Shown in pieces: positions 51,515-62,680 of a DNA stretch of 64,000 nt. Numbering within the stretch: position 1 is the stretch's first letter; each line of letters starts with the position of its first letter. Source of the stretch: Bacteroidales bacterium (GTDB lineage Bacteria; Bacteroidota; Bacteroidia; Bacteroidales; VadinHA17); contig PLNT01000018.1 of the NCBI GenBank assembly GCA_003141895.1, positions 85,647 to 149,646 of the forward strand, written 5' to 3'. Under the pieces are notes generated by a model that worked only from the letters and a program-made list of their open reading frames with translations, was not told the origin of the DNA and did no database searches. The translations under genes were made by a program, and so were the position numbers.

Positions 51515-52543
51515 CTAACCTAATTTAACAACAAACGTTGATAGTATAAGAATAATAATTCCAATGGATAATACGATGATGGTTTTCTTTTTAGCGCCTT
51601 TCCATTCGTTAAGGAATATACCCCAGATATTACTTATAGCTATATTCAGTGCCATAAGTATACTCCACCCGAAAACAGCCATTCCCTGTGGAAGTCTGCT
51701 TGATCCCATTCCGAAAAAATGGAACTGAAGAAACCATAGAACCCCAGCCAGAAAAGTAAAGAACAGGTTATTAAGCAAAATGCTTCCCGATACAGAAAAA
51801 TAATCTTTATACGTTTTATTTTTAATATTCAGGTATCCGCAATAAATAAGGTTGGTAAAAAATCCTCCAAGGAGAATGAATATAAGTGATGGGTTTTTCT
51901 GAAAAAGAGGATTTGTTCCATGAGAAAGGGCCACTGCTTCAATTGGCTTGCCTGATTCGAATCCGAAATTAAAACATGCACTCATTATTCCGGCGAAAAT
52001 GGCAATGAGTATCCCCTTTTTAAGTGCAAATTCTTTAACAGCAGCTCTTTTTTCCTCCTCAGTCATTTCCTTACTCTTGAGTGACCCTGCATAGCCGATT
52101 ACCGCTATTCCGACCAATGTAATTGAGACTCCAGCTATTGTTAGTACTCCTCCCGTTGATGAGAATAGATTATCCCCTGCGATTACCGGCGGTATCAGAG
52201 TGCCAAAAGCTGCGCATAGTCCCAGTGCAATACTTTGTCCGAGTGCAACACCCAGATATCTGATGCTCAATCCAAATGTTAGTCCGCCAAATCCCCATAA
52301 AGCGCCAAAAAACATTGCCCAAAGTTTGGCAGATAAAGGTGCCTCATGAATTATCGGAAGAAGTTGCCCTTTTGGGACAAAAATAAATGCAAATAAAACC
52401 GGTGCAATCAGCCACGCTGCGACACCCTGGCTAATCCAGTATGATTCCCATGCCCACAATTTCACCTTTTTAAATGGCACATAGAAGCTTGCGGCCCCAA
52501 TACTACCCAGCGCGATCAGTAAGATACCTGATAATGGATTCAT
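51515..52543 (-). CDS. rhaT: L-rhamnose/H+ symporter
   Basis: 342 aa, 10-TM DMT-like topology with a central charged loop (KSKEMTEEEKRAAVKE), as in RhaT. Stop lies 4 nt upstream of the rhaM start. Confidence 0.8.
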   Translation of the reverse strand: MNPLSGILLIALGSIGAASFYVPFKKVKLWAWESYWISQGVAAWLIAPVLFAFIFVPKGQLLPIIHEAPLSAKLWAMFFGALWGFGGLTFGLSIRYLGVALGQSIALGLCAAFGTLIPPVIAGDNLFSSTGGVLTIAGVSITLVGIAVIGYAGSLKSKEMTEEEKRAAVKEFALKKGILIAIFAGIMSACFNFGFESGKPIEAVALSHGTNPLFQKNPSLIFILLGGFFTNLIYCGYLNIKNKTYKDYFSVSGSILLNNLFFTFLAGVLWFLQFHFFGMGSSRLPQGMAVFGWSILMALNIAISNIWGIFLNEWKGAKKKTIIVLSIGIIILILSTFVVKLG

Positions 52544-52671
52544 TTAATATTCATTAATAAGAGTGAGCTGCAATTTATAAACTTTAACCTCATGAAAAAG
52601 CCTTTTGAGATATTTTTTTATTCAGACATTTTTTTATATCCTTGATACTAAATATCAAATAATTCTAAAAA

Positions 52672-55398
52672 ATGAAATCACTTAAACTTACACTCATTTT
52701 TCTGTCGTTTTTCTGCGTTTCGTTTGCCCAGGATCTTTCGTTAAAAGACCTGACCGTAGATCATAAAACAAATCCCATCGGTATTGACGATAAACAACCG
52801 AGATTTTCATGGAAAATAAAGGACACTGGCAATAATTTGATGCAAACTGCTTATCTATTGAAGGTGGCTTCTGATGAGAAATTTTCTTCCATTGTCTGGC
52901 AATCGTCGAAAATTGAAACCAATGAATCAATTCTTCAAACATATAAAGGACCGGAGCTTAAGTCGGGCCAGAGATATTTCTGGCAGGTGAAAATTTGGGA
53001 TAACAAGGGCAATGAATCGAAATGGAGCCAGCCATCATATTGGGAAATGGGTCTGCTTTCCCCTTCAGAGTGGAAAGCTAAATGGATTGAAATGGGAACT
53101 GATACGTTAAGATATTCACCTTCTACCCTGGTCAGAAAAGAGTTCCAACTGACACGATCAATTTCATCTGCAAGGATATATGTTACCTCTCATGGTTTTT
53201 ATGAGATTGAGATTAACGGAAAAAAGGTTGGTGACCAGGTACTTACTCCGGGATGGACGTCTTACGGGAAAAGGCTTCAGTATCAGGTATATGATGTTAC
53301 AAAAATGTTGTCAAAAGGGAATAATGCAATAGGAGCTATGCTTGGTGACGGGTGGTACAGGGGTACCCTTGCCTGGGGTAACAACTGGGCGGTTTATGGA
53401 AAAAGACTTGGTATCCTTCTTCAGTTGAAAATTACATACACTGATGGTTCGGTGTCAACTGTAGTCAGCGACGAAACCTGGAAAGCTTCAAAGGACGGAC
53501 CAATAAGGATGGATGACATTTACAATGGTGAAACCTACGATGCAACGATCAACATCGCAGGATGGAGTAATCCCGGATTCAATGACGCAAAGTGGCAGAA
53601 TGTAAGCATTGGCAATTACAATCTTAATAATCTTATAGCATCAGAGGGATCATTTGTCAGAAAAATGCAGGAGATAAAACCTGTAAAGATATTCAGGTCA
53701 CCTAAAGGTAAACTGATCGTAGATATGGGACAGAATATGGTCGGATGGTTAAGAGTGAAAGTCTCAGGTAAAAAAGGAACCGTTGTAACATTAAGACATG
53801 CAGAGGTGCTTGATAAAAAGGGAGAGTTTTATACTGAGAACCTTCGCGCTGCAAAATGCCAGTTAACATACACACTATCAGGTGAAGGTCAGGAAACTTA
53901 CGAGCCAAGGTTTACTTTTATGGGATTCAGATTTGTTGAAGTTGAAGGTTTTCCCGGCGACCTTACTACCGATAATCTGACTGGAGTGGTTGTTCATTCA
54001 GATATGCCTGTAACCGGAACATATGAATGTTCGAATCCACTTATCAACCAGCTGCAACATAATATTCAATGGGGTCAGAAGGGAAATTTCGTGGATGTTC
54101 CTACTGATTGTCCCCAAAGAGATGAACGTCTTGGCTGGACCGGAGATGCACAGGCTTTCTGCCGGACAGCTGCATATAATATGGATGTTTCATCCTTTTT
54201 CACGAAATGGTTAAAAGATGTAGCCGCTGATCAAAAGCAAGGAGGAGAAGTGCCGGATGTCATTCCTGATATACTTAATAAACAAGGCTCACTGACAGCC
54301 CAGCCTTCAGCCGGCTGGGGCGATGTTTCAGTAATTGCTCCATGGACTATGTATCTTGTATATGGCGATAAAAAAATTTTGGAAAATCAATATCAGAGCA
54401 TGAAAGCGTGGGTTGAATATATACGCAAGAAAGCAGGAGATAGTTATATATGGAAAGACGGAAGCAAATATGGCGACTGGTTGTTTTATCACCCTCCAGT
54501 AAACAATCATACAGAACCAGACGGATATACCGAACATGATTTTATTGCGACAGCATTTTTTGCTTATTCATCAAGTTTACTGGCTGAAGCAGCAAAGGCA
54601 CTAGGAAAAACTGATGATGAAAAAAACTATTCAGACCTGTTCAATAAAATTAAAACTGTTTTTATCAATGAATATGTTACAAATGTAGGAAGAGTGGGAA
54701 CTAATTCACAAACATCTTATGTTCTCGCTCTTAAGTTCAATTTGTTACCTGATAATCTCCGGAGTAAAGCAGCTAAGTTTCTAAATAATGATATTAAGAA
54801 CAGGGACAATCATCTCTCTACCGGGTTCCTTGGAACACCATATTTATGTCATGTATTATCTTCAAACGGATATACTGAAACGGCCTACGATCTTCTTCTT
54901 CAGGAATCTTATCCTTCATGGATATACCCTGTTAAAATGGGTGCCACAACAATATGGGAACGCTGGGATGGAGAAAAAACCGACAGCACTTTCGAGGATG
55001 CCGGCATGAACTCGTTCAACCATTATGCTTATGGAGCTATCGGCGATTGGATGTACAGGGTGTCTGCAGGAATTGAAACTATGGGAGCCGGTTATAAACA
55101 TATAATCATTCAACCGCATCCCACGAGTAGACTTACATATTCAAAAGCCACTTTTGAAAGTTCATATGGAACAATTGCATCAGGTTGGGAAAGAAAAGAC
55201 GGAAAAGTCATTGTGAAAGTAAAAATACCATCTAATACTACTGCTACAATTATTTTATCTGCTTCTGGTCAAGATAAAGTAACAGAAACCGGAAAAGCAT
55301 TAAACCAGAATACTTACTTAAGAGATATTAAGTTTTCAGATAATCAGTTAACGATGCAGGCTGGTTCAGGTGACTATAGTTTTGAGATAGCAGACTGA
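52672..55398 (+). CDS. alpha-L-rhamnosidase, glycoside hydrolase family 78
   Basis: 908 aa with a signal peptide. DCPQRDERLGWTGDAQ catalytic-domain signature and the (alpha/alpha)6 region. Confidence 0.85.
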   Translation: MKSLKLTLIFLSFFCVSFAQDLSLKDLTVDHKTNPIGIDDKQPRFSWKIKDTGNNLMQTAYLLKVASDEKFSSIVWQSSKIETNESILQTYKGPELKSGQRYFWQVKIWDNKGNESKWSQPSYWEMGLLSPSEWKAKWIEMGTDTLRYSPSTLVRKEFQLTRSISSARIYVTSHGFYEIEINGKKVGDQVLTPGWTSYGKRLQYQVYDVTKMLSKGNNAIGAMLGDGWYRGTLAWGNNWAVYGKRLGILLQLKITYTDGSVSTVVSDETWKASKDGPIRMDDIYNGETYDATINIAGWSNPGFNDAKWQNVSIGNYNLNNLIASEGSFVRKMQEIKPVKIFRSPKGKLIVDMGQNMVGWLRVKVSGKKGTVVTLRHAEVLDKKGEFYTENLRAAKCQLTYTLSGEGQETYEPRFTFMGFRFVEVEGFPGDLTTDNLTGVVVHSDMPVTGTYECSNPLINQLQHNIQWGQKGNFVDVPTDCPQRDERLGWTGDAQAFCRTAAYNMDVSSFFTKWLKDVAADQKQGGEVPDVIPDILNKQGSLTAQPSAGWGDVSVIAPWTMYLVYGDKKILENQYQSMKAWVEYIRKKAGDSYIWKDGSKYGDWLFYHPPVNNHTEPDGYTEHDFIATAFFAYSSSLLAEAAKALGKTDDEKNYSDLFNKIKTVFINEYVTNVGRVGTNSQTSYVLALKFNLLPDNLRSKAAKFLNNDIKNRDNHLSTGFLGTPYLCHVLSSNGYTETAYDLLLQESYPSWIYPVKMGATTIWERWDGEKTDSTFEDAGMNSFNHYAYGAIGDWMYRVSAGIETMGAGYKHIIIQPHPTSRLTYSKATFESSYGTIASGWERKDGKVIVKVKIPSNTTATIILSASGQDKVTETGKALNQNTYLRDIKFSDNQLTMQAGSGDYSFEIAD

Positions 55399-57908: not shown

Positions 57909-58601
57909 AGCTTTACAGGCTATAAGGTTAGCTATTAAGGTATTTACAGCATCTATAGCCTTCCTGCTACATCTCTTTCAGCTCCCATTACACCCAGATG
58001 TAGAAATGGTCTGACAGTCAGGGATCGACAATAATGTTAATAATATTACCAATCCAGAGCACCTTCATTGCTACTGCAGCATTACCTGCACTTCTGAATA
58101 TGACATTAATAATAAAGTATAACTTCAGGCGTTATTAAATGTTTCTTATAAATTTTCATTAGGAAAATGAACAATATCAAAGAAATAGTGTTGTGACATA
58201 CAAATGAAAGTCATTTCAGAAATTTATTTATTACATGTTTGCTTAGAAATTTTAGCAGTTTGGATTTCATTATTCCGAAAAAGACTTTCTATACTAAACC
58301 CGTTGATGATATTTAACATGAATTGTAAAAATAAACACAAAAAATTACCAAATTTATTTTCGTATTATTTTTGTGGTTCAATTTATGTAATATATTGTTA
58401 ATCACCAATATATGACAGTAAATAATAAATCTAAAAAAATCGATTGTTAATAAAATGCCAATAGTGTTAATATTTCTGATTGCTGAGTGATACAATGTAT
58501 TTATAGATTATATATTTTCGTGACTAATATTTTTACTAAATAGTATTAATTTAAAACAAACAAACTTAAAAAGAAAAGGTGAAAAATCTTCATCATCCGT
58601 T

Positions 58602-59843
58602 ATGAACGCTAACAATAATGAGGCTACGACACTCCACGGAGAGAGTCGCCTCGTGGGTTGCTCTTCTGATGAAGAGCCTGGCGCGAAAACCATAATTTTT
58701 TCGCAAAACGAAATCCCAATTCCGTTAGTTAGCAATAGAAGTTCGGACTTTATGTGCCGCTTCTTCCCCCTAACGACTATCGATTCCTGGAATGATTGGA
58801 AATGGCAGCTTCGCAATGCTCTCACCAGCATCGAAGATCTAAAGAAAATCATGAAATTATCCGAAAAGGAGATTCTGGCTATTAATAATCTAAAAGGTCG
58901 CTTACCTCTCAGGATCACTCCCTATTTTGCTTCTTTGATTTACAACAGCAAACCGTCGAATCCTTTGCGTCGAAACGTAGTGCCTGTTGTTGAAGAATTA
59001 CTTGAAACAAGTAGCGAGCAATCTGACCCACTGCATGAAAAATCTTTCTCACCAGTAAAAGGAATTGTACATAGATACCCTGACAGGGTTCTGTTTACAG
59101 TTACACAGGTATGCTCAAATTATTGCAGATATTGCACGCGTTCACATTCTGTAGGAAGACTCGATAAGCTTGGAAGACAGGATTTTGAAAAAGCATTTAA
59201 TTATATTGCAACTCATACGGAAGTACGTGATGTACTTATAAGCGGTGGTGATCCTCTCACATTAAATGATGAGACACTCGATTATATTCTTTCTAATATC
59301 AGAAGAATTGAGCATGTTGAGATAATAAGAATAGGAACAAGGGTTCCTGTAGTTCTTCCTCAGAGAATAACAGACAATCTGATAAATATTCTGAGGAAAT
59401 ATCATCCGCTTTTTATAAGTCTGCATTTTTCGCATCCTGATGAGATAACGGATGAATGTGCAAAAGCATGCAACAAACTAGCCGACGGAGGATTTCCTCT
59501 CGGAAGTCAGACAGTTCTTCTGAAAGGTATCAATGATAATGTACCTACAATGAAGCTACTTATGCATAAATTGCTAAAGATCAGAGTAAGACCATATTAT
59601 CTATATCAGTGTGATCTGATCCCCGGATCAGGTCATTTCAGAACAACTGTCAAAAAAGGTCTTGAAATAATAAAAGGATTAAGAGGCTTTACCAGTGGTT
59701 ATGCTGTACCAACATTTGTAGTTGACGCTCCAGGCGGCGGCGGAAAAATCCCTTTGCTCCCTGATTATGTAGTGGAACATACTGACGAACATATAGTATT
59801 GCGTAATTACAAAGGGGTATTGTGCGAATACCCGGAAAAATAG
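58602..59843 (+). CDS. kamA: lysine 2,3-aminomutase (KamA-family radical SAM/PLP enzyme), short form
   Basis: CSNYCRYC cluster motif and WNDWKWQLRN N-terminal signature. YQCD and VVDAPGGGGK align with Asp293, Asp330 and Lys337 of Clostridium LAM. The first 50 or so codons may be non-coding (alternative ATG at 58752). Confidence 0.85.
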   Translation: MNANNNEATTLHGESRLVGCSSDEEPGAKTIIFSQNEIPIPLVSNRSSDFMCRFFPLTTIDSWNDWKWQLRNALTSIEDLKKIMKLSEKEILAINNLKGRLPLRITPYFASLIYNSKPSNPLRRNVVPVVEELLETSSEQSDPLHEKSFSPVKGIVHRYPDRVLFTVTQVCSNYCRYCTRSHSVGRLDKLGRQDFEKAFNYIATHTEVRDVLISGGDPLTLNDETLDYILSNIRRIEHVEIIRIGTRVPVVLPQRITDNLINILRKYHPLFISLHFSHPDEITDECAKACNKLADGGFPLGSQTVLLKGINDNVPTMKLLMHKLLKIRVRPYYLYQCDLIPGSGHFRTTVKKGLEIIKGLRGFTSGYAVPTFVVDAPGGGGKIPLLPDYVVEHTDEHIVLRNYKGVLCEYPEK

Positions 59844-59850
59844 GATTAAA

Positions 59851-60819
59851 ATGAAAGTTGGTTTGACTTATGATCTTCGGTCATGGTATACTGACCGCGG
59901 ATATTCTATGGATGAAACTGCCGAATTTGATAAGCAGGAAACCATAGATGCTCTGGAGAAATCACTGAATCTGATGGGTTATGAAACTGAACCTGTTGGA
60001 AATACCTTTCAACTGATCGAAGCCCTTGCTTCAGGGAAAAGATGGGATCTCATCTTTAATATTGCGGAAGGTTTATATGGTGACGGAAGGGAATCAGTTG
60101 TACCCGCCATTCTCGACCAGTATAAGATACCATACGTATTCAGTGGTCCTGTAATAATGGGATTGTCACTTAATAAACATCTGGCTAAACTTGTAGTTGC
60201 AGCCTCCGGAGTTCCGGTCAGTCCGGGTAAACTTATAACTAAACTTCAGGACCTGAATGATTGCAATCTAAATTATCCGTTGTTCGTAAAGCCAGTTTCG
60301 GAGGGAACGGGCAAAGGAATCACCGAAAAAAGTTTAGTTAATTCCGTCGCCGACCTGAGGAAAATGGTTGAATGGATTCTTTCTGAATTCCATCAGCCTG
60401 CACTGGTTGAAGAATATCTTCCCGGTAGGGAGTTTACCGTCGGTATAGTTGGCTATGGACAGGATGCTGTTGCTATTGGTGGTATGGAAGTAATTTGTGC
60501 TAATAATCTGCCTTATTCAGTAGAAGTAAAGGAAAATTATCAGAATTACTGTACCTACAAACCCCTTGGTGATGATATAGTTGACGAATGTAGGTCAGTA
60601 GCCCTGGGAGCGTGGACAGCATTGGATGCGGTGGATGCCGGAAGAGTTGATCTGAAAGCCAACCGTAATGGCAAAATATGTTTTATTGAAGCAAATCCCC
60701 TTGCAGGGTTAAATCCTATACATTCAGATCTTCCAATTCTATCCAGAATGTCCGGTATTGAATACCAGACCCTTATGGAGATGATAATGAAAGCAGCGAG
60801 AAAACGGAACGGACTTTAA
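59851..60819 (+). CDS. ATP-grasp ligase, D-alanine--D-alanine ligase-like
   Basis: 322 aa. Ddl-like N-domain, central ATP-grasp region (PLFVKPVSEGTGKGI) and C-terminal FIEANPLAG. Confidence 0.75.
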   Translation: MKVGLTYDLRSWYTDRGYSMDETAEFDKQETIDALEKSLNLMGYETEPVGNTFQLIEALASGKRWDLIFNIAEGLYGDGRESVVPAILDQYKIPYVFSGPVIMGLSLNKHLAKLVVAASGVPVSPGKLITKLQDLNDCNLNYPLFVKPVSEGTGKGITEKSLVNSVADLRKMVEWILSEFHQPALVEEYLPGREFTVGIVGYGQDAVAIGGMEVICANNLPYSVEVKENYQNYCTYKPLGDDIVDECRSVALGAWTALDAVDAGRVDLKANRNGKICFIEANPLAGLNPIHSDLPILSRMSGIEYQTLMEMIMKAARKRNGL

Positions 60820-60858
60820 TAATCCTTAAATCATATTAAGAAAAGAGTGGAGGGAATA

Positions 60859-61821
60859 ATGAGGAGGTGTTGTATTATTTATAATGAACCTGGGAAAGAT
60901 GCGTTGGCTGATGAGCTGGATGTTCTCGATCAGGTAGCTCATATTGAAAAATATCTGAAAGATCTTGGTATATCGGTCTATAGAAAAGGCATAACCGAGA
61001 AGTTTATGTCGGAGATTGCATCACTGTCCGCCGAAAAACCTGATTTTGTTTTTAACCTGGTTGAATCAATTAATAATAAAGGTGAGCTTAACTATTTTGT
61101 TCCGGCCCTTTTGAATTTACATTCAATTCCTTATTCAGGTAATCCGCTGGAAGCAATTTTTCTGACAAGCAATAAGACGATCTGCAGCAAAATGATGAAG
61201 AATGCAGGGATTAATAATCCTTCATCCTATCTCCCTTCACAATGTGACCGGCTGATTCCTGGCAGAAAATATATTGTTAAGCCTATATGGGAGGACGGAT
61301 CCCTCGGGATTACCAGTGAATCGGTTTTTGAATGGAACCCTGCTTCAGAAGTAAAAATCAAAGGACTTGATGATTCACACTGGTTCATTGAAGATTTTAT
61401 TGACGGAAGAGAATTTAATATCAGCGTTTTAGCAGGCAAGGATGGCCCGCAGGTGTTGCCACCGGCAGAAATAGTATTTGTAAACTACGCCGATGATAAA
61501 CCAAAAATTATCGATTTCAAAGCCAAATGGGAAATGGACAGTTTTGAATATATCAATACTGTCCGTCAATTTCCCGGAAATAATCTCAATCCTATTCTTT
61601 TAGCAAACCTGAAAAAAGCAGCACTTTCATGCTGGCATCTACTTGGTTTGAGAGGTTATGCAAGAGTAGATGTAAGAACCGACAGCTCTGACAATGTATT
61701 CGTGATTGAAATAAATGGCAATCCATGTATTTCACCCGATGGAGGTTTTGTTGCTGCCACAAAAGAAGCTGGTTATCATTTTACTGAGGTCTTGCAGCAC
61801 ATTATTGATGATTTAAATTAG
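60859..61821 (+). CDS. ATP-grasp ligase, Ddl-like (second, divergent paralog)
   Basis: About 320 aa. KYIVKPIWEDGSLGI and VIEINGNPCIS are ATP-grasp elements. A GTG at 60847 is an alternative start. Confidence 0.7.
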   Translation: MRRCCIIYNEPGKDALADELDVLDQVAHIEKYLKDLGISVYRKGITEKFMSEIASLSAEKPDFVFNLVESINNKGELNYFVPALLNLHSIPYSGNPLEAIFLTSNKTICSKMMKNAGINNPSSYLPSQCDRLIPGRKYIVKPIWEDGSLGITSESVFEWNPASEVKIKGLDDSHWFIEDFIDGREFNISVLAGKDGPQVLPPAEIVFVNYADDKPKIIDFKAKWEMDSFEYINTVRQFPGNNLNPILLANLKKAALSCWHLLGLRGYARVDVRTDSSDNVFVIEINGNPCISPDGGFVAATKEAGYHFTEVLQHIIDDLN

Positions 61822-61860
61822 AAATATCTTTTTCATTTGCCTTAGTAAATCCTAAACTAA

Positions 61861-62229
61861 ATGAAAGGATTATATACAGTTTTATTGCTGGTAATGTCTA
61901 ATACATTCATGACGATTGCCTGGTATGGTCATCTTAAATTAAGGACGATGAGCAGGTTTGAAAGTCTAAGCCTGTTTGCCGTAATATTATTGAGCTGGGG
62001 GATCGCCTTTTTTGAGTACTCTTTACAGGTACCAGCCAACAGAATTGGATTCAAGGCAAACGGAGGTCCATTTTCCCTTATAGAATTAAAGGTAATTCAG
62101 GAGGTTATATCAATAATGGTTTTTACCGGATTTACACTACTTGTTTTTAAAAATGAACATTTCCGCCTTAATCATCTGATTGGATTCGCGTTTTTAATTC
62201 TTGCAGTTTATTTTGTTTTCAAAAAGTAG
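61861..62229 (+). CDS. small DMT-like membrane protein (DUF486-like)
   Basis: 122 aa with 4 TM. The N-terminus LLVMSNTFMTIAWYGHLK resembles DUF486. Family assignment is from memory. Confidence 0.55.
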   Translation: MKGLYTVLLLVMSNTFMTIAWYGHLKLRTMSRFESLSLFAVILLSWGIAFFEYSLQVPANRIGFKANGGPFSLIELKVIQEVISIMVFTGFTLLVFKNEHFRLNHLIGFAFLILAVYFVFKK

Positions 62230-62230
62230 C

Positions 62231-62680
62231 TTATTTTATAAGGTTCGCATTATAATACTGAGGCTGTCCGGTTACTTCCTCTCCCAACCAGTCTGGCTTA
62301 AAATATTCTTCGTCATCTGAAGCGAGTTCTATTTCCGCAATTACCAGACCTTCATTCTTCTCATGGAAAACATCTACCTCAATTTTATGTTTGCCTGATG
62401 GTATAATGTATCGTGTTTTAAAAATTCTCCCGGGAATGCAAATCTTCATCATTTCTTCTGCATCTTTTAACGGTATCTGAAACTCCCATTCATTTCTGGA
62501 TATGGTATTTGCCCTGGCCCTGGTTTTTATCGTAAGGAATGCTTTGTCATCAGCAATCCGTATCCTCATAGTTTTCTCTCGGTCAAGCAAAAGATAAGCC
62601 TGGATTATTTTTATCTCTCTGACTGCCAGATGTCTGAATTCGCCTTTCACAATAAATTTACGTTCTGTTTCTGTTGCCAT
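62231..62680 (-). CDS. CYTH-domain protein (triphosphate tunnel metalloenzyme)
   Basis: N-terminal ExExK motif (TETERKF). 149 aa. Confidence 0.8.
   Translation of the reverse strand: MATETERKFIVKGEFRHLAVREIKIIQAYLLLDREKTMRIRIADDKAFLTIKTRARANTISRNEWEFQIPLKDAEEMMKICIPGRIFKTRYIIPSGKHKIEVDVFHEKNEGLVIAEIELASDDEEYFKPDWLGEEVTGQPQYYNANLIK

What the first reader, a model, noticed from the sequence alone, without database searches (positions are those of the whole stretch)
58602..62229. Lysine 2,3-aminomutase followed by two Ddl-like ATP-grasp ligases and a small DMT-like membrane protein: candidate beta-lysine peptide pathway
Seen: four same-strand genes with gaps of 7 to about 40 nt. The KamA homolog keeps CX3CX2C, the PLP lysine in VVDAPGGGGK, and both acidic residues (YQCD and VVD) that align with Asp293 and Asp330 of Clostridium lysine 2,3-aminomutase. 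It lacks the C-terminal Zn-binding extension, and NDN replaces NDC. Two divergent Ddl-type ATP-grasp genes follow, then a 122-aa 4-TM protein. Established: Asp293 and Asp330 bind the lysine epsilon-amino group and are replaced in glutamate 2,3-aminomutases. Known fates of beta-lysine are fermentation (kamDE, kdd and so on), N-acetylation (ablB) and EF-P lysylation via EpmA, and none of these genes is present here. Inference: the ligases may condense beta-lysine with another amino acid or an acceptor, giving a dipeptide or oligopeptide, an osmolyte, or a cell-envelope or protein modification. I do not recognise this as a characterised pathway.
Basis: partly seen in the sequence, partly recalled or inferred. 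Interest (0 to 1): 0.65.

Follow-up and report, generated by a model that had tools for sequence, protein, structure and literature searches.

The report
Conserved beta-lysine plus two-ligase operon
A lysine 2,3-aminomutase gene sits next to two unusual ATP-dependent ligase genes, and this trio recurs across several bacterial phyla (sometimes fused into one protein), which points to an undescribed pathway that builds a beta-lysine-containing compound.

Summary
Four + strand genes, 7-39 nt apart, encode:
- a KamA-type lysine 2,3-aminomutase with every catalytic and lysine-binding residue but no Zn tail;
- two Ddl-fold ATP-grasp ligases, L1 and L2, 22% identical to each other;
- a DMT_6 (DUF486) membrane protein.

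L1 and L2 are not D-Ala-D-Ala ligases. They score far below the Ddl family cut-offs and have different substrate-pocket residues, but they keep the ATP, Mg and catalytic residues.

KamA-L1-L2 is conserved, adjacent and same-strand. KamA lies upstream of L1 in 56/65 species genomes and 48/52 metagenome loci where this could be judged. The loci span Bacteroidota, Desulfobacterota, Clostridia and Gammaproteobacteria. L1-L2 and KamA-L1 fusion proteins exist.

This window lacks it, and its Bacteroidales clade has lost it several times. DMT_6 is an occasional accessory gene seen in two clades.

Best reading: lysine is converted to beta-lysine, two ATP-dependent amide bonds follow, and the product is a small beta-lysine conjugate that most lineages N-acetylate. 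The product and its role are unknown. I found no paper describing this cluster.

The parts
58602..59843 (+). KamA-family radical SAM/PLP lysine 2,3-aminomutase (413 aa). It is a short form without the C-terminal Zn-binding tail and has a clade-specific N-terminal extension of about 58 aa.
   Evidence: PDB 2A5H matches at E = 2.5e-134. CxxxCxxC, Asp293, Asp330 and Lys337 equivalents are kept, and Cys268 is Asn. NCBIfam scores: TIGR00238 KamA family 373 bits (cut-off 199); AblA 498 (cut-off 525); Glu 2,3-aminomutase 444 (650); Arg 2,3-aminomutase 403 (600); EpmB 256 (369). The same residues are kept in 55-56 of 56 cluster-linked homologues, all with short tails.
59851..60819 (+). ATP-grasp amide ligase L1 (322 aa). 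It has the Ddl fold but belongs to a separate family. It is the ligase found fused to KamA in some organisms.
   Evidence: Pfam Dala_Dala_lig_C 6.3e-23. Best NCBIfam Ddl model scores 123 bits against a cut-off of 243. AF2 model pLDDT 94.9; Foldseek top hit is Ddl 4zqi at TM 0.78-0.82 and 25% identity. ATP/Mg/catalytic residues are kept while Tyr216, His63 and Leu282 equivalents are changed. KamA-L1 fusions: P0155 and L152, 786 aa.
60847..61821 (+). ATP-grasp amide ligase L2 (324 aa from GTG 60847, or 320 aa from ATG 60859). It is a second Ddl-fold family, 22% identical to L1, with an invariant AKW...EY.NT.R.F loop.
   Evidence: Pfam Dala_Dala_lig_C 6.8e-19 and ATP-grasp_3. Best NCBIfam Ddl model scores 100 bits against a cut-off of 243. 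L1 versus L2 is 22% identical. AF2 pLDDT 89.5; Foldseek top hit is DdlB at TM 0.75-0.79. Catalytic residues are kept. The Tyr216 equivalent is an invariant Trp, and the Ser150 and Leu282 equivalents are changed. L2 follows L1 in 67/69 and 54/56 loci, and they form one ORF in 4/53 metagenome loci.
61861..62229 (+). DMT_6 (DUF486) small membrane protein (122 aa). It is a probable accessory transporter and not part of the conserved core.
   Evidence: PF04342 at 9.1e-42. Present in 8/55 genome loci and 3/33 metagenome loci. In a second, distant clade (L124, L130, L134, L150) it lies between L2 and the GNAT gene. Only fragments remain in L003, L006 and L101.
57909..58601 (.). A 693-nt AT-rich non-coding stretch between arfB and the aminomutase gene, presumably holding the operon's promoter and leader. 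Its role was not tested.
   Evidence: It holds no ORF that is conserved in related loci. There is no Rfam match at gathering level in the whole window, and only a chance-level hit (E = 0.62) in this stretch. In relatives, other genes are inserted at this position.

Best explanation
This is the core of a widespread, uncharacterised biosynthetic operon.

**Step 1 (well supported).** The KamA-type radical SAM/PLP enzyme converts L-lysine to beta-lysine (3,6-diaminohexanoate).

**Steps 2 and 3 (inferred).** L1 and L2 are two different Ddl-fold ATP-grasp ligases. Each would make one amide bond through an acyl-phosphate intermediate. L1 probably takes beta-lysine straight from the aminomutase, and L2 probably adds a second partner. 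The product would be a small beta-lysine-containing di- or tri-peptide-like compound.

**Step 4 (absent here).** In most lineages a ~160-aa GNAT acetylates a free amine of the product. This is most likely the epsilon-amine of the beta-lysine unit, because some loci also carry a histone-deacetylase-type amidohydrolase that could remove that acetyl group. This window's Bacteroidales lineage has lost the GNAT gene, so it would make the non-acetylated, more cationic form.

**Accessory gene.** The DMT_6 protein is an occasional accessory, probably a transporter for the product or a precursor.

**Role (least certain).** I favour a soluble cytoplasmic metabolite such as a compatible solute or nitrogen-rich reserve. 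This is by analogy with N-epsilon-acetyl-beta-lysine and N-acetylglutaminylglutamine amide.
For: **Aminomutase.**
- It aligns with 2A5H at E = 2.5e-134 with all cofactor residues and both lysine epsilon-amine-binding aspartates.
- Those aspartates are kept in 56/56 and 55/56 cluster-linked homologues.
- The best NCBIfam equivalog is lysine 2,3-aminomutase AblA, ahead of the Glu and Arg aminomutases and EpmB.

**Ligases.**
- Both are confident Ddl-fold models.
- Both keep the equivalents of Lys97, Lys144, Glu180, Glu187, Lys215, Arg255, Asp257, Glu270 and Asn272, so both should be active. Their substrate-pocket residues differ from Ddl.
- Both score far below the Ddl cut-offs.

**Functional coupling.**
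- KamA lies directly upstream of L1 in 56/65 genome loci and 48/52 metagenome loci.
- L2 lies downstream of L1 in 67/69 and 54/56 loci.
- The loci come from several phyla, with L1 identity down to 43-50%.
- Many double ATP-grasp L1-L2 fusions exist, as do KamA-L1 fusions (P0155; L152).

**Acetylation module.**
- A GNAT follows L2 in 45/55 and 26/33 loci, and in 31/33 of the more distant genome loci.
- A GNAT + Hist_deacetyl fusion is present in 4/55 and 7/33 loci.

**Against a carrier protein or precursor peptide.** No conserved small ORF that could encode one was found in or beside the cluster.

**The trio works without the GNAT.** The three genes are intact in all GNAT-less relatives, and the GNAT was lost several times within the clade.
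Against: - No chemistry was tested. Nothing shows that L1 or L2 binds beta-lysine, and the partner substrates are unknown.
- About 10-15% of loci have L1-L2-GNAT without an adjacent KamA. The ligase pair may therefore not depend strictly on beta-lysine.
- The habitats are fen, permafrost, lake sediment, groundwater and digesters. They are not obviously saline, which weakens the osmolyte idea.
- The GNAT's best family hit is the protein N-acetyltransferase RimI, although it is far below cut-off. A GNAT-deacetylase pair could instead regulate an enzyme by lysine acetylation.
- The substrate of the aminomutase is inferred from residues. The AblA equivalog cut-off is narrowly missed, 498 against 525 bits.
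Confidence: 0.5

Rival explanations
1. Protein modification. The ligases attach beta-lysine, or a short chain containing it, to a carboxylate of a target protein. RimK does this with glutamates on ribosomal protein S6, and EpmA/EpmB beta-lysylate EF-P. The GNAT and deacetylase would then cap or uncap the added amine, or regulate the target.
For: ATP-grasp enzymes include protein-tailing ligases. The cluster GNAT's best NCBIfam hit is RimI, a protein N-terminal acetyltransferase, at E = 1e-8 to 1e-9 but below cut-off. Histone-deacetylase-type enzymes act on acetyl-lysine. KamA relatives supply beta-lysine for EF-P (EpmB model 256 bits).
Against: No conserved target or carrier gene lies in or beside the cluster. 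L1 and L2 resemble the dipeptide-forming Ddl, not RimK: a RimK chain scores only E = 3.5e-6 against 1e-41 for Ddl. The cluster's patchy spread among environmental anaerobes does not fit a core translation-factor modification. The EpmB model is far below its cut-off.
Confidence: 0.15
2. Polymer synthesis. The two ligases build a beta-lysine-based oligomer or polymer, comparable to cyanophycin or a poly-lysine. Acetylation and deacetylation would control its charge, and DMT_6 would help export it.
For: There are two different ligases, as with the two ligase activities of cyanophycin synthetase. The L1 profile weakly matches the cyanophycin synthetase ATP-grasp domain (E = 2.6e-8; NCBIfam 6e-10). 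Beta-lysine has a spare amine for chain growth. Reversible acetylation could mask a polycation.
Against: The closest structures are dipeptide-forming Ddl enzymes. No primer-binding or extra domains are present. No depolymerase such as a cyanophycinase is conserved nearby.
Confidence: 0.1
3. Secondary metabolite. The operon makes a beta-lysine-containing bioactive compound, such as an antibiotic-like or metal-binding molecule. The GNAT and deacetylase would act as a self-protection and activation pair, and DMT_6 as the exporter.
For: Beta-lysine occurs in streptothricin-type and tuberactinomycin antibiotics, and streptothricin resistance enzymes are GNATs that acetylate the beta-lysine unit (my own knowledge). 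The cluster GNAT gives a faint STAT hit of 23 bits. A transporter is sometimes embedded in the cluster.
Against: The cluster is very compact, with no tailoring, NRPS or regulatory-resistance genes. It is vertically conserved at one syntenic chromosomal site within Bacteroidales. Repeated loss of the GNAT with the biosynthetic genes retained would be dangerous if the GNAT were a self-resistance gene.
Confidence: 0.1
4. Cell-wall variant. L1 and L2 are peptidoglycan-precursor ligases (Ddl paralogues) that put beta-lysine or another unusual residue into the stem peptide or cross-bridge.
For: Both have the Ddl fold and the Dala_Dala_lig_C domain. L1 keeps the Ser281 and Tyr210 equivalents. ATP-grasp enzymes that add residues to the lysine of the stem peptide are known (my own knowledge).
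Against: Both are far below every Ddl/Van family cut-off. Tyr216, His63 and Leu282 equivalents are changed in L1, and most pocket residues are changed in L2. No mur, fem or other wall genes are conserved nearby. An acetyltransferase plus deacetylase module is not expected for wall precursors.
Confidence: 0.05

Closest known systems
AblA/AblB pathway for N-epsilon-acetyl-beta-lysine (methanogens and some bacteria)
   Same: A lysine 2,3-aminomutase is the first step; AblA is the best-scoring NCBIfam equivalog at 498 bits. In most related loci a GNAT acetyltransferase sits in the same operon.
   Different: Two ATP-grasp ligases lie between the aminomutase and the GNAT. The GNAT is ~160 aa and scores only 21-22 bits on the AblB model, whose cut-off is 205. 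The aminomutase is a short form just under the AblA cut-off. This window has no GNAT at all.
Pyrrolysine biosynthesis PylB/PylC (my own knowledge of the pathway)
   Same: The logic matches: a radical SAM enzyme rearranges lysine, and a Ddl-like ATP-grasp ligase joins the product to another amine through an amide bond.
   Different: PylB is not a KamA-family, PLP-dependent aminomutase. No PylC chain is among the 60 best PDB matches of the L1 profile. There are two ligases here, and no PylD-type dehydrogenase.
D-alanine--D-alanine ligase (Ddl) and Van ligases
   Same: The three-domain ATP-grasp fold matches at TM 0.75-0.82. The ATP-, Mg- and acyl-phosphate-handling residues are conserved.
   Different: Identity is 20-25%. 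Scores are 100-123 bits against a cut-off of 243. The N-terminal GGxSxE motif is replaced. The Tyr216, His63 and Leu282 equivalents are changed in both ligases, the Ser150 equivalent in L2, and the Ser281 equivalent is variable in L2. The genomic partner is an aminomutase, not wall genes.
Ngg, the GNAT + ATP-grasp enzyme that makes the osmolyte N-acetylglutaminylglutamine amide (my own knowledge)
   Same: It pairs ATP-grasp peptide-bond formation with N-acetylation to make a small, charge-balanced solute.
   Different: The ligase families differ and no aminomutase is involved. Homology to Ngg was not tested here.
EpmA/EpmB beta-lysylation of EF-P
   Same: A short KamA-family aminomutase without the Zn tail supplies beta-lysine to a ligase.
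   Different: The ligase there is a lysyl-tRNA-synthetase paralogue, not an ATP-grasp enzyme. The EpmB model scores 256 bits against a cut-off of 369. No EpmA-like gene or efp lies within 10 kb.

Membership tests
Lysine 2,3-aminomutase (KamA/AblA) | Radical SAM CxxxCxxC cluster motif | tested here: met
   CSNYCRYC aligns with the LAM motif. All three Cys are kept in 56/56 cluster-linked homologues.
Lysine 2,3-aminomutase (KamA/AblA) | PLP-binding lysine (Lys337 of the Clostridium enzyme) | tested here: met
   The K of GGGGK aligns with Lys337; kept in 55/56 homologues.
Lysine 2,3-aminomutase (KamA/AblA) | Asp293 and Asp330, which hold the lysine epsilon-amine | tested here: met
   Both align; kept in 56/56 and 55/56 homologues.
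Lysine 2,3-aminomutase (KamA/AblA) | Structural Zn site (Cys268 plus Cys375/377/380) and the C-terminal domain | tested here: not met
   Cys268 is Asn and the protein ends at LAM residue 368. Across the family the tail after GGGK is 30-52 aa, against 79 in LAM, and the Cys268 position is never Cys.
Lysine 2,3-aminomutase (KamA/AblA) | Curated family score (NCBIfam) | tested here: inconclusive
   The KamA-family model TIGR00238 is passed (373 against 199). The AblA equivalog is narrowly missed (498 against 525.4).
Lysine 2,3-aminomutase (KamA/AblA) | Conversion of L-lysine to beta-lysine | not testable with these tools
   Needs an anaerobic enzyme assay.
D-alanine--D-alanine ligase (Ddl) | Curated family score | tested here: not met
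   L1 scores 123 bits and L2 100 bits against a cut-off of 243. All equivalog and Van models are lower still.
D-alanine--D-alanine ligase (Ddl) | ATP-grasp fold with ATP/Mg/catalytic residues | tested here: met
   Foldseek TM 0.75-0.82 to Ddl structures. Equivalents of Lys97, Lys144, Glu180, Glu187, Lys215, Arg255, Asp257, Glu270 and Asn272 are kept.
D-alanine--D-alanine ligase (Ddl) | D-Ala pocket (Glu15-Ser150-Tyr216 triad, His63, Ser281, Leu282) | tested here: not met
   Tyr216 is variable in L1 and an invariant Trp in L2. His63 is Glu in L1. Leu282 is Asp in L1 and Gly in L2. Ser150 is Ala/Gly in L2. Ser281 is kept only in L1. The alignment around Glu15 is uncertain.
AblA/AblB acetyl-beta-lysine operon | Adjacent AblB-type beta-lysine acetyltransferase | tested here: not met
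   No GNAT lies in the locus, and no homologue of the cluster GNAT lies anywhere in the 64-kb window. The relatives' GNAT scores 21-22 bits against a cut-off of 205 on the AblB model.
EpmA/EpmB EF-P modification | EpmB-type aminomutase with an EpmA ligase and efp nearby | tested here: not met
   The EpmB model scores 256 against 369. No tRNA-synthetase-like or EF-P gene is among the called genes within 10 kb.
Lysine fermentation (kamA, kamDE, kdd, kce, kal) | B12-dependent beta-lysine 5,6-aminomutase and downstream genes in the cluster | tested here: not met
   None of these families appears in the Pfam lists of the called genes within 10 kb, nor among conserved neighbours in 160 related loci.
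DMT_6 / DUF486 | Pfam PF04342 score | tested here: met
   142 bits against a cut-off of 25, covering the full length. The family's function is unknown.

The most novel reading that the evidence does not exclude
The paired ATP-grasp ligases might not stop at a small molecule. They could instead build a beta-lysine-based oligomer or polymer, or a beta-lysyl tag on a protein. The GNAT and the histone-deacetylase-type enzyme would then switch its charge on and off. That would be a new template-independent way of making a cationic beta-peptide.
Probability: 0.15. Interest if true: 0.85.

Novelty: new variant of a known kind. Interest (0 to 1): 0.62.

Why it matters
Three fates of beta-lysine are well known to me in primary metabolism: fermentation, N-epsilon-acetylation as an osmolyte, and attachment to EF-P. 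This operon points to a fourth, ATP-grasp-catalysed amide ligation.

**It is not rare.**
- The large protein collection holds at least 7,998 related proteins.
- L1 has 506 separate 50%-identity clusters at E below 1e-30.

**Carriers are ecologically important.** They are mostly uncultured anaerobes from wetlands, permafrost, sediments and digesters, where unknown nitrogen-rich solutes affect carbon and nitrogen budgets.

**It defines new enzyme families.** L1 and L2 are two Ddl-fold ligase families that databases now mislabel as D-alanine-D-alanine ligase. Recognising them would improve annotation and add candidate enzymes for making beta-amino-acid peptides.

Tried and rejected
**Searches that found nothing useful.**
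- Rfam over the whole window and the upstream gap found no riboswitch or leader.
- PADLOC found no match to any defence-system model.
- Eight literature searches were run. None of those on aminomutase + ATP-grasp, beta-lysine + ATP-grasp, or KamA + ATP-grasp found a paper on this cluster.
- The DUF486 search returned only DUF4861 and DUF4867 papers through word-start matching.
- The amidoligase survey by Iyer and colleagues could not be retrieved.
- The paddy-soil salinity papers mention only methanogen ablB.
- A search for a conserved small ORF (a carrier protein or precursor peptide) in 160 loci found only shadows of neighbouring genes, plus one lineage-specific secreted 99-aa protein.

**Ideas rejected.**
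- Ordinary Ddl paralogues: rejected on family scores and pocket residues.
- Glutamate 2,3-aminomutase: rejected because the Asp pair is kept and the score is lower.
- An EpmB or lysine-fermentation context: rejected because the partner genes are absent.
- arfB, CYTH and UDG as partners: they are neighbours only in the close Bacteroidales clade, so this is local synteny, not function.

**Technical limits.**
I rebuilt it from protein-search hits.
The residue mapping to Ddl therefore rests on sequence alignment, not on structural superposition.

Full report
**What is in the window**

Four + strand ORFs lie at 58602-59843, 59851-60819, 60847-61821 and 61861-62229, separated by 7, 27 and 39 nt. The exact aminomutase sequence is encoded on NCBI assembly GCA_003154725.1, contig PMEL01000067.1. 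There the gene caller starts the third gene at the ATG at 60859. The closest relatives are uncultured Bacteroidales from fen, permafrost, lake sediment and groundwater.

Pfam assigns the four genes as follows:
- Radical_SAM + LAM_C;
- Dala_Dala_lig_C;
- Dala_Dala_lig_C + ATP-grasp_3;
- DMT_6.

The flanking genes show no link to beta-lysine. They are arfB, an EamA transporter, DUF169, a rhamnose-utilisation set, a CYTH protein and uracil-DNA glycosylase.

**The aminomutase**

The first protein aligns with Clostridium lysine 2,3-aminomutase (PDB 2A5H) over 352 residues at E = 2.5e-134. Counting along that alignment:
- CSNYCRYC is the CxxxCxxC motif.
- The D of YQCD is Asp293.
- The D of VVDAP is Asp330.
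- The K of GGGGK is the PLP lysine, Lys337.
- Cys268 is Asn.
- The protein stops at LAM residue 368, so the Cys375/377/380 zinc tail is absent.

The NCBIfam scores are:

| Model | Score (bits) | Cut-off (bits) |
|---|---|---|
| AblA lysine 2,3-aminomutase | 498 | 525 |
| Glutamate 2,3-aminomutase | 444 | 650 |
| Arginine 2,3-aminomutase | 403 | 600 |
| EpmB | 256 | 369 |
| General KamA family (TIGR00238) | 373 | 199 |

Only the general KamA-family model is passed. In 56 homologues taken from related clusters, the two aspartates are kept in 56 and 55, the PLP lysine in 55 and the cluster cysteines in all. All have the short tail, and none has Cys at the Cys268 position. Asp293 and Asp330 hold the lysine epsilon-amine and are replaced in glutamate 2,3-aminomutase; that is my own knowledge of the enzyme family. 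On that basis L-lysine to beta-lysine is the well-supported first step. The short form is a family trait, not damage.

**The two ligases**

L1 and L2 are 22% identical to each other. Against solved structures, both match only Ddl and Van ligases by sequence. Both give confident models:
- L1 has pLDDT 94.9 and L2 has pLDDT 89.5.
- Their best structural matches are Ddl enzymes at TM 0.75-0.82 and 20-25% identity.

They are not Ddl:
- The best Ddl family model gives 123 and 100 bits against a cut-off of 243.
- Mapped onto E. coli DdlB, both keep the nucleotide, magnesium and acyl-phosphate residues: Lys97, Lys144, Glu180, Glu187, Lys215, Arg255, Asp257, Glu270 and Asn272.
- The D-Ala pocket is changed. 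Tyr216 is variable in L1 and an invariant Trp in L2. His63 is Glu in L1. Leu282 is Asp in L1 and Gly in L2. Ser150 is Ala or Gly in L2.
- Each family has its own invariant motifs, for example AKW...EY.NT.R.F in L2.

Both should therefore be active amide ligases with non-Ddl substrates. The window holds no canonical ddl.

**Conservation of the cluster**

I ran two independent surveys:
I examined the best 80.
It gave 80 more loci.

The table counts only loci with enough flanking DNA to judge.

| Feature | Genome loci | Metagenome loci |
|---|---|---|
| KamA directly upstream of L1 | 56/65 | 48/52 |
| L2 directly downstream of L1 | 67/69 | 54/56 |

The loci come from Bacteroidota, Desulfobacterota/Syntrophia, Clostridia, Gammaproteobacteria and others, with L1 identity down to 43-50%. 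Fusion proteins point the same way:
- Many 650-730-aa proteins carry L1 and L2 in one chain.
- L1 and L2 form one ORF in 4/53 metagenome loci.
- P0155 (746 aa) and an ORF in L152 (786 aa) fuse the aminomutase to L1.

In most loci a fourth gene follows L2. It is a ~160-aa GNAT acetyltransferase, present in 45/55 genome loci, 31/33 of the more distant genome loci, and 26/33 metagenome loci. It is a generic GNAT, with only weak sub-threshold hits to RimI, STAT and AblB.

Some loci add a ~585-aa GNAT + histone-deacetylase-type fusion: 4/55 and 7/33. A few loci carry other partners:
- an AsnC/Lrp regulator;
- a sigma-54 activator;
- a CxxCxxCC protein between KamA and L1, which is also found fused to L1 in P0136;
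- a fold-III PLP decarboxylase.

This window has no GNAT. The gap between L2 and DMT_6 is 39 nt, and no homologue of the cluster GNAT lies anywhere in the 64 kb. A tree of L1+L2 places GNAT-bearing loci (L007, L101) among GNAT-less ones. The gene was therefore lost several times in this Bacteroidales clade while KamA, L1 and L2 stayed intact.

**The membrane protein**

DMT_6 is not core. It occurs in 8/55 and 3/33 loci, and only fragments remain in L003, L006 and L101. It is also more than local synteny. In a second clade (L124, L130, L134, L150) a 47-52% identical DMT_6 lies between L2 and the GNAT. That clade's L1 is 61-84% identical within the clade and 43-48% identical to the window. In the window's own clade DMT_6 follows the GNAT, or follows L2 where the GNAT is gone. 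I read it as an optional transporter of the system. The family has no known function.

**Mechanism**

- **Shown by sequence.** The locus encodes a lysine-type 2,3-aminomutase and two catalytically complete ATP-grasp ligases, and the three are evolutionarily coupled.
- **Inferred.** Beta-lysine passes to L1, because L1 is adjacent to KamA and sometimes fused to it. L2 makes a second amide bond. The GNAT, where present, acetylates a remaining amine.
- **Further inference.** A histone-deacetylase-type enzyme acts on N-acetyl-aminoalkyl groups. Its presence hints that the acetyl sits on the epsilon-amine of the beta-lysine unit. That would leave the carboxylate and the beta-amine as the two ligation points.
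- **Small molecule favoured.** No conserved small ORF for a carrier protein or precursor peptide exists in or beside the cluster. This favours a free small molecule.
- **Role is a guess.** It could be a compatible solute or a nitrogen-rich metabolite, by analogy with acetyl-beta-lysine and N-acetylglutaminylglutamine amide. The non-saline habitats argue for caution.

**Rivals**

- **Protein tagging** would resemble RimK or EpmAB. It is not excluded, but there is no target gene and the ligases resemble Ddl, not RimK.
- **A beta-lysine polymer** is possible, but nothing specific supports it.
- **A bioactive secondary metabolite** fits poorly with repeated GNAT loss and the compact, chromosomally stable locus.
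- **A peptidoglycan role** is unlikely given the changed pockets and the absence of wall genes.
- **Separately**, the GNAT-deacetylase pair could regulate an enzyme by lysine acetylation instead of modifying the product.

**Comparison and novelty**

The nearest known systems are:
- AblA/AblB, which shares the first enzyme and a GNAT but has no ligases;
- PylB/PylC, which shares the logic of a radical SAM lysine rearrangement followed by a Ddl-like ligase, but uses different families;
- Ddl itself, which shares the fold but not the substrates.

The membership tests fail for Ddl, the AblAB operon, EpmAB and lysine fermentation. They pass for the general KamA family and DMT_6. Six searches of 8 million open papers and preprints for this gene combination found no description of it. 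Sources name the ligases only 'D-alanine-D-alanine ligase' or 'ATP-grasp domain-containing protein'.

I rate this a new variant of a known kind. The enzyme families are familiar, but their conserved and widespread combination is undescribed and implies a new fate for beta-lysine.

**Verdict**

- The true conserved unit is KamA-L1-L2(-GNAT).
- This locus is a GNAT-less derivative.
- DMT_6 is an accessory gene.

The product is unknown, and ordinary expression and LC-MS experiments can identify it.

Noticed in passing
window 61822-61860; compare L007:3363-3842 and L101:2585-3064: The ~160-aa GNAT gene that normally follows L2 is cleanly absent here. A tree of L1+L2 shows it was lost several separate times in this Bacteroidales clade while the three upstream genes stayed intact.
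   Followed up: yes
L003:10056-10127, L006:10001-10201, L101:3097-3177: Only fragments of the DMT_6 gene remain in some close relatives. The stretch downstream of L2 seems prone to deletions.
   Followed up: partly
L152:5684-8044; protein P0155: The aminomutase and ligase L1 form a single reading frame of 786 and 746 aa. In L152 this fusion is followed by L2 and the GNAT.
   Followed up: partly
L100 and L140, between KamA and L1; protein P0136: A ~200-aa CxxCxxCC (PF03692, putative Zn/Fe-chelating) protein is inserted between the aminomutase and L1 in some loci. In P0136 it is fused to the N-terminus of L1. Its role is unknown; it might serve the Fe-S enzyme.
   Followed up: partly
L032:6111-7862 and 14 other loci: A ~585-aa fusion of a GNAT-like domain with a histone-deacetylase-type domain (PF00850) sits inside the cluster in a minority of lineages, in addition to the small GNAT.
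   Followed up: partly
L090, L119, L133, about 2 kb downstream of the GNAT: A fold-III PLP decarboxylase (Orn/DAP/Arg decarboxylase family) follows the cluster after a PhoU_div gene (Pfam-confirmed) and a putative phosphate-transporter gene (judged from its sequence only). It could be diaminopimelate decarboxylase supplying lysine, or it could be coincidence.
   Followed up: no
L085, L088, L115, L148 and others, upstream of KamA: A sigma-54-dependent response regulator lies just upstream of the aminomutase in seven loci, one of them the Syntrophobacteraceae genome L081. An AsnC/Lrp regulator follows the GNAT in four Bacteroidota loci.
   Followed up: no
L081:6085-6384 and six other loci: A 99-aa protein with a signal peptide and no Pfam match recurs upstream of the aminomutase in one lineage.
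   Followed up: no
window 57909-58601: A 693-nt AT-rich gap with no conserved ORF and no Rfam match lies between arfB and the operon. In relatives, other genes are inserted at this position.
   Followed up: partly
window 51515-55398 and upstream: A rhamnose-utilisation set lies just upstream of the region and is unrelated to the finding. It comprises a RhaT transporter, a 908-aa alpha-L-rhamnosidase and, beyond these, rhaM, rhaA and an FGGY kinase.
   Followed up: no
window 62231-62680 (- strand): A CYTH-domain protein converges on the DMT_6 gene with only 1 nt between their stop codons. It is syntenic only within the close Bacteroidales clade.
   Followed up: partly
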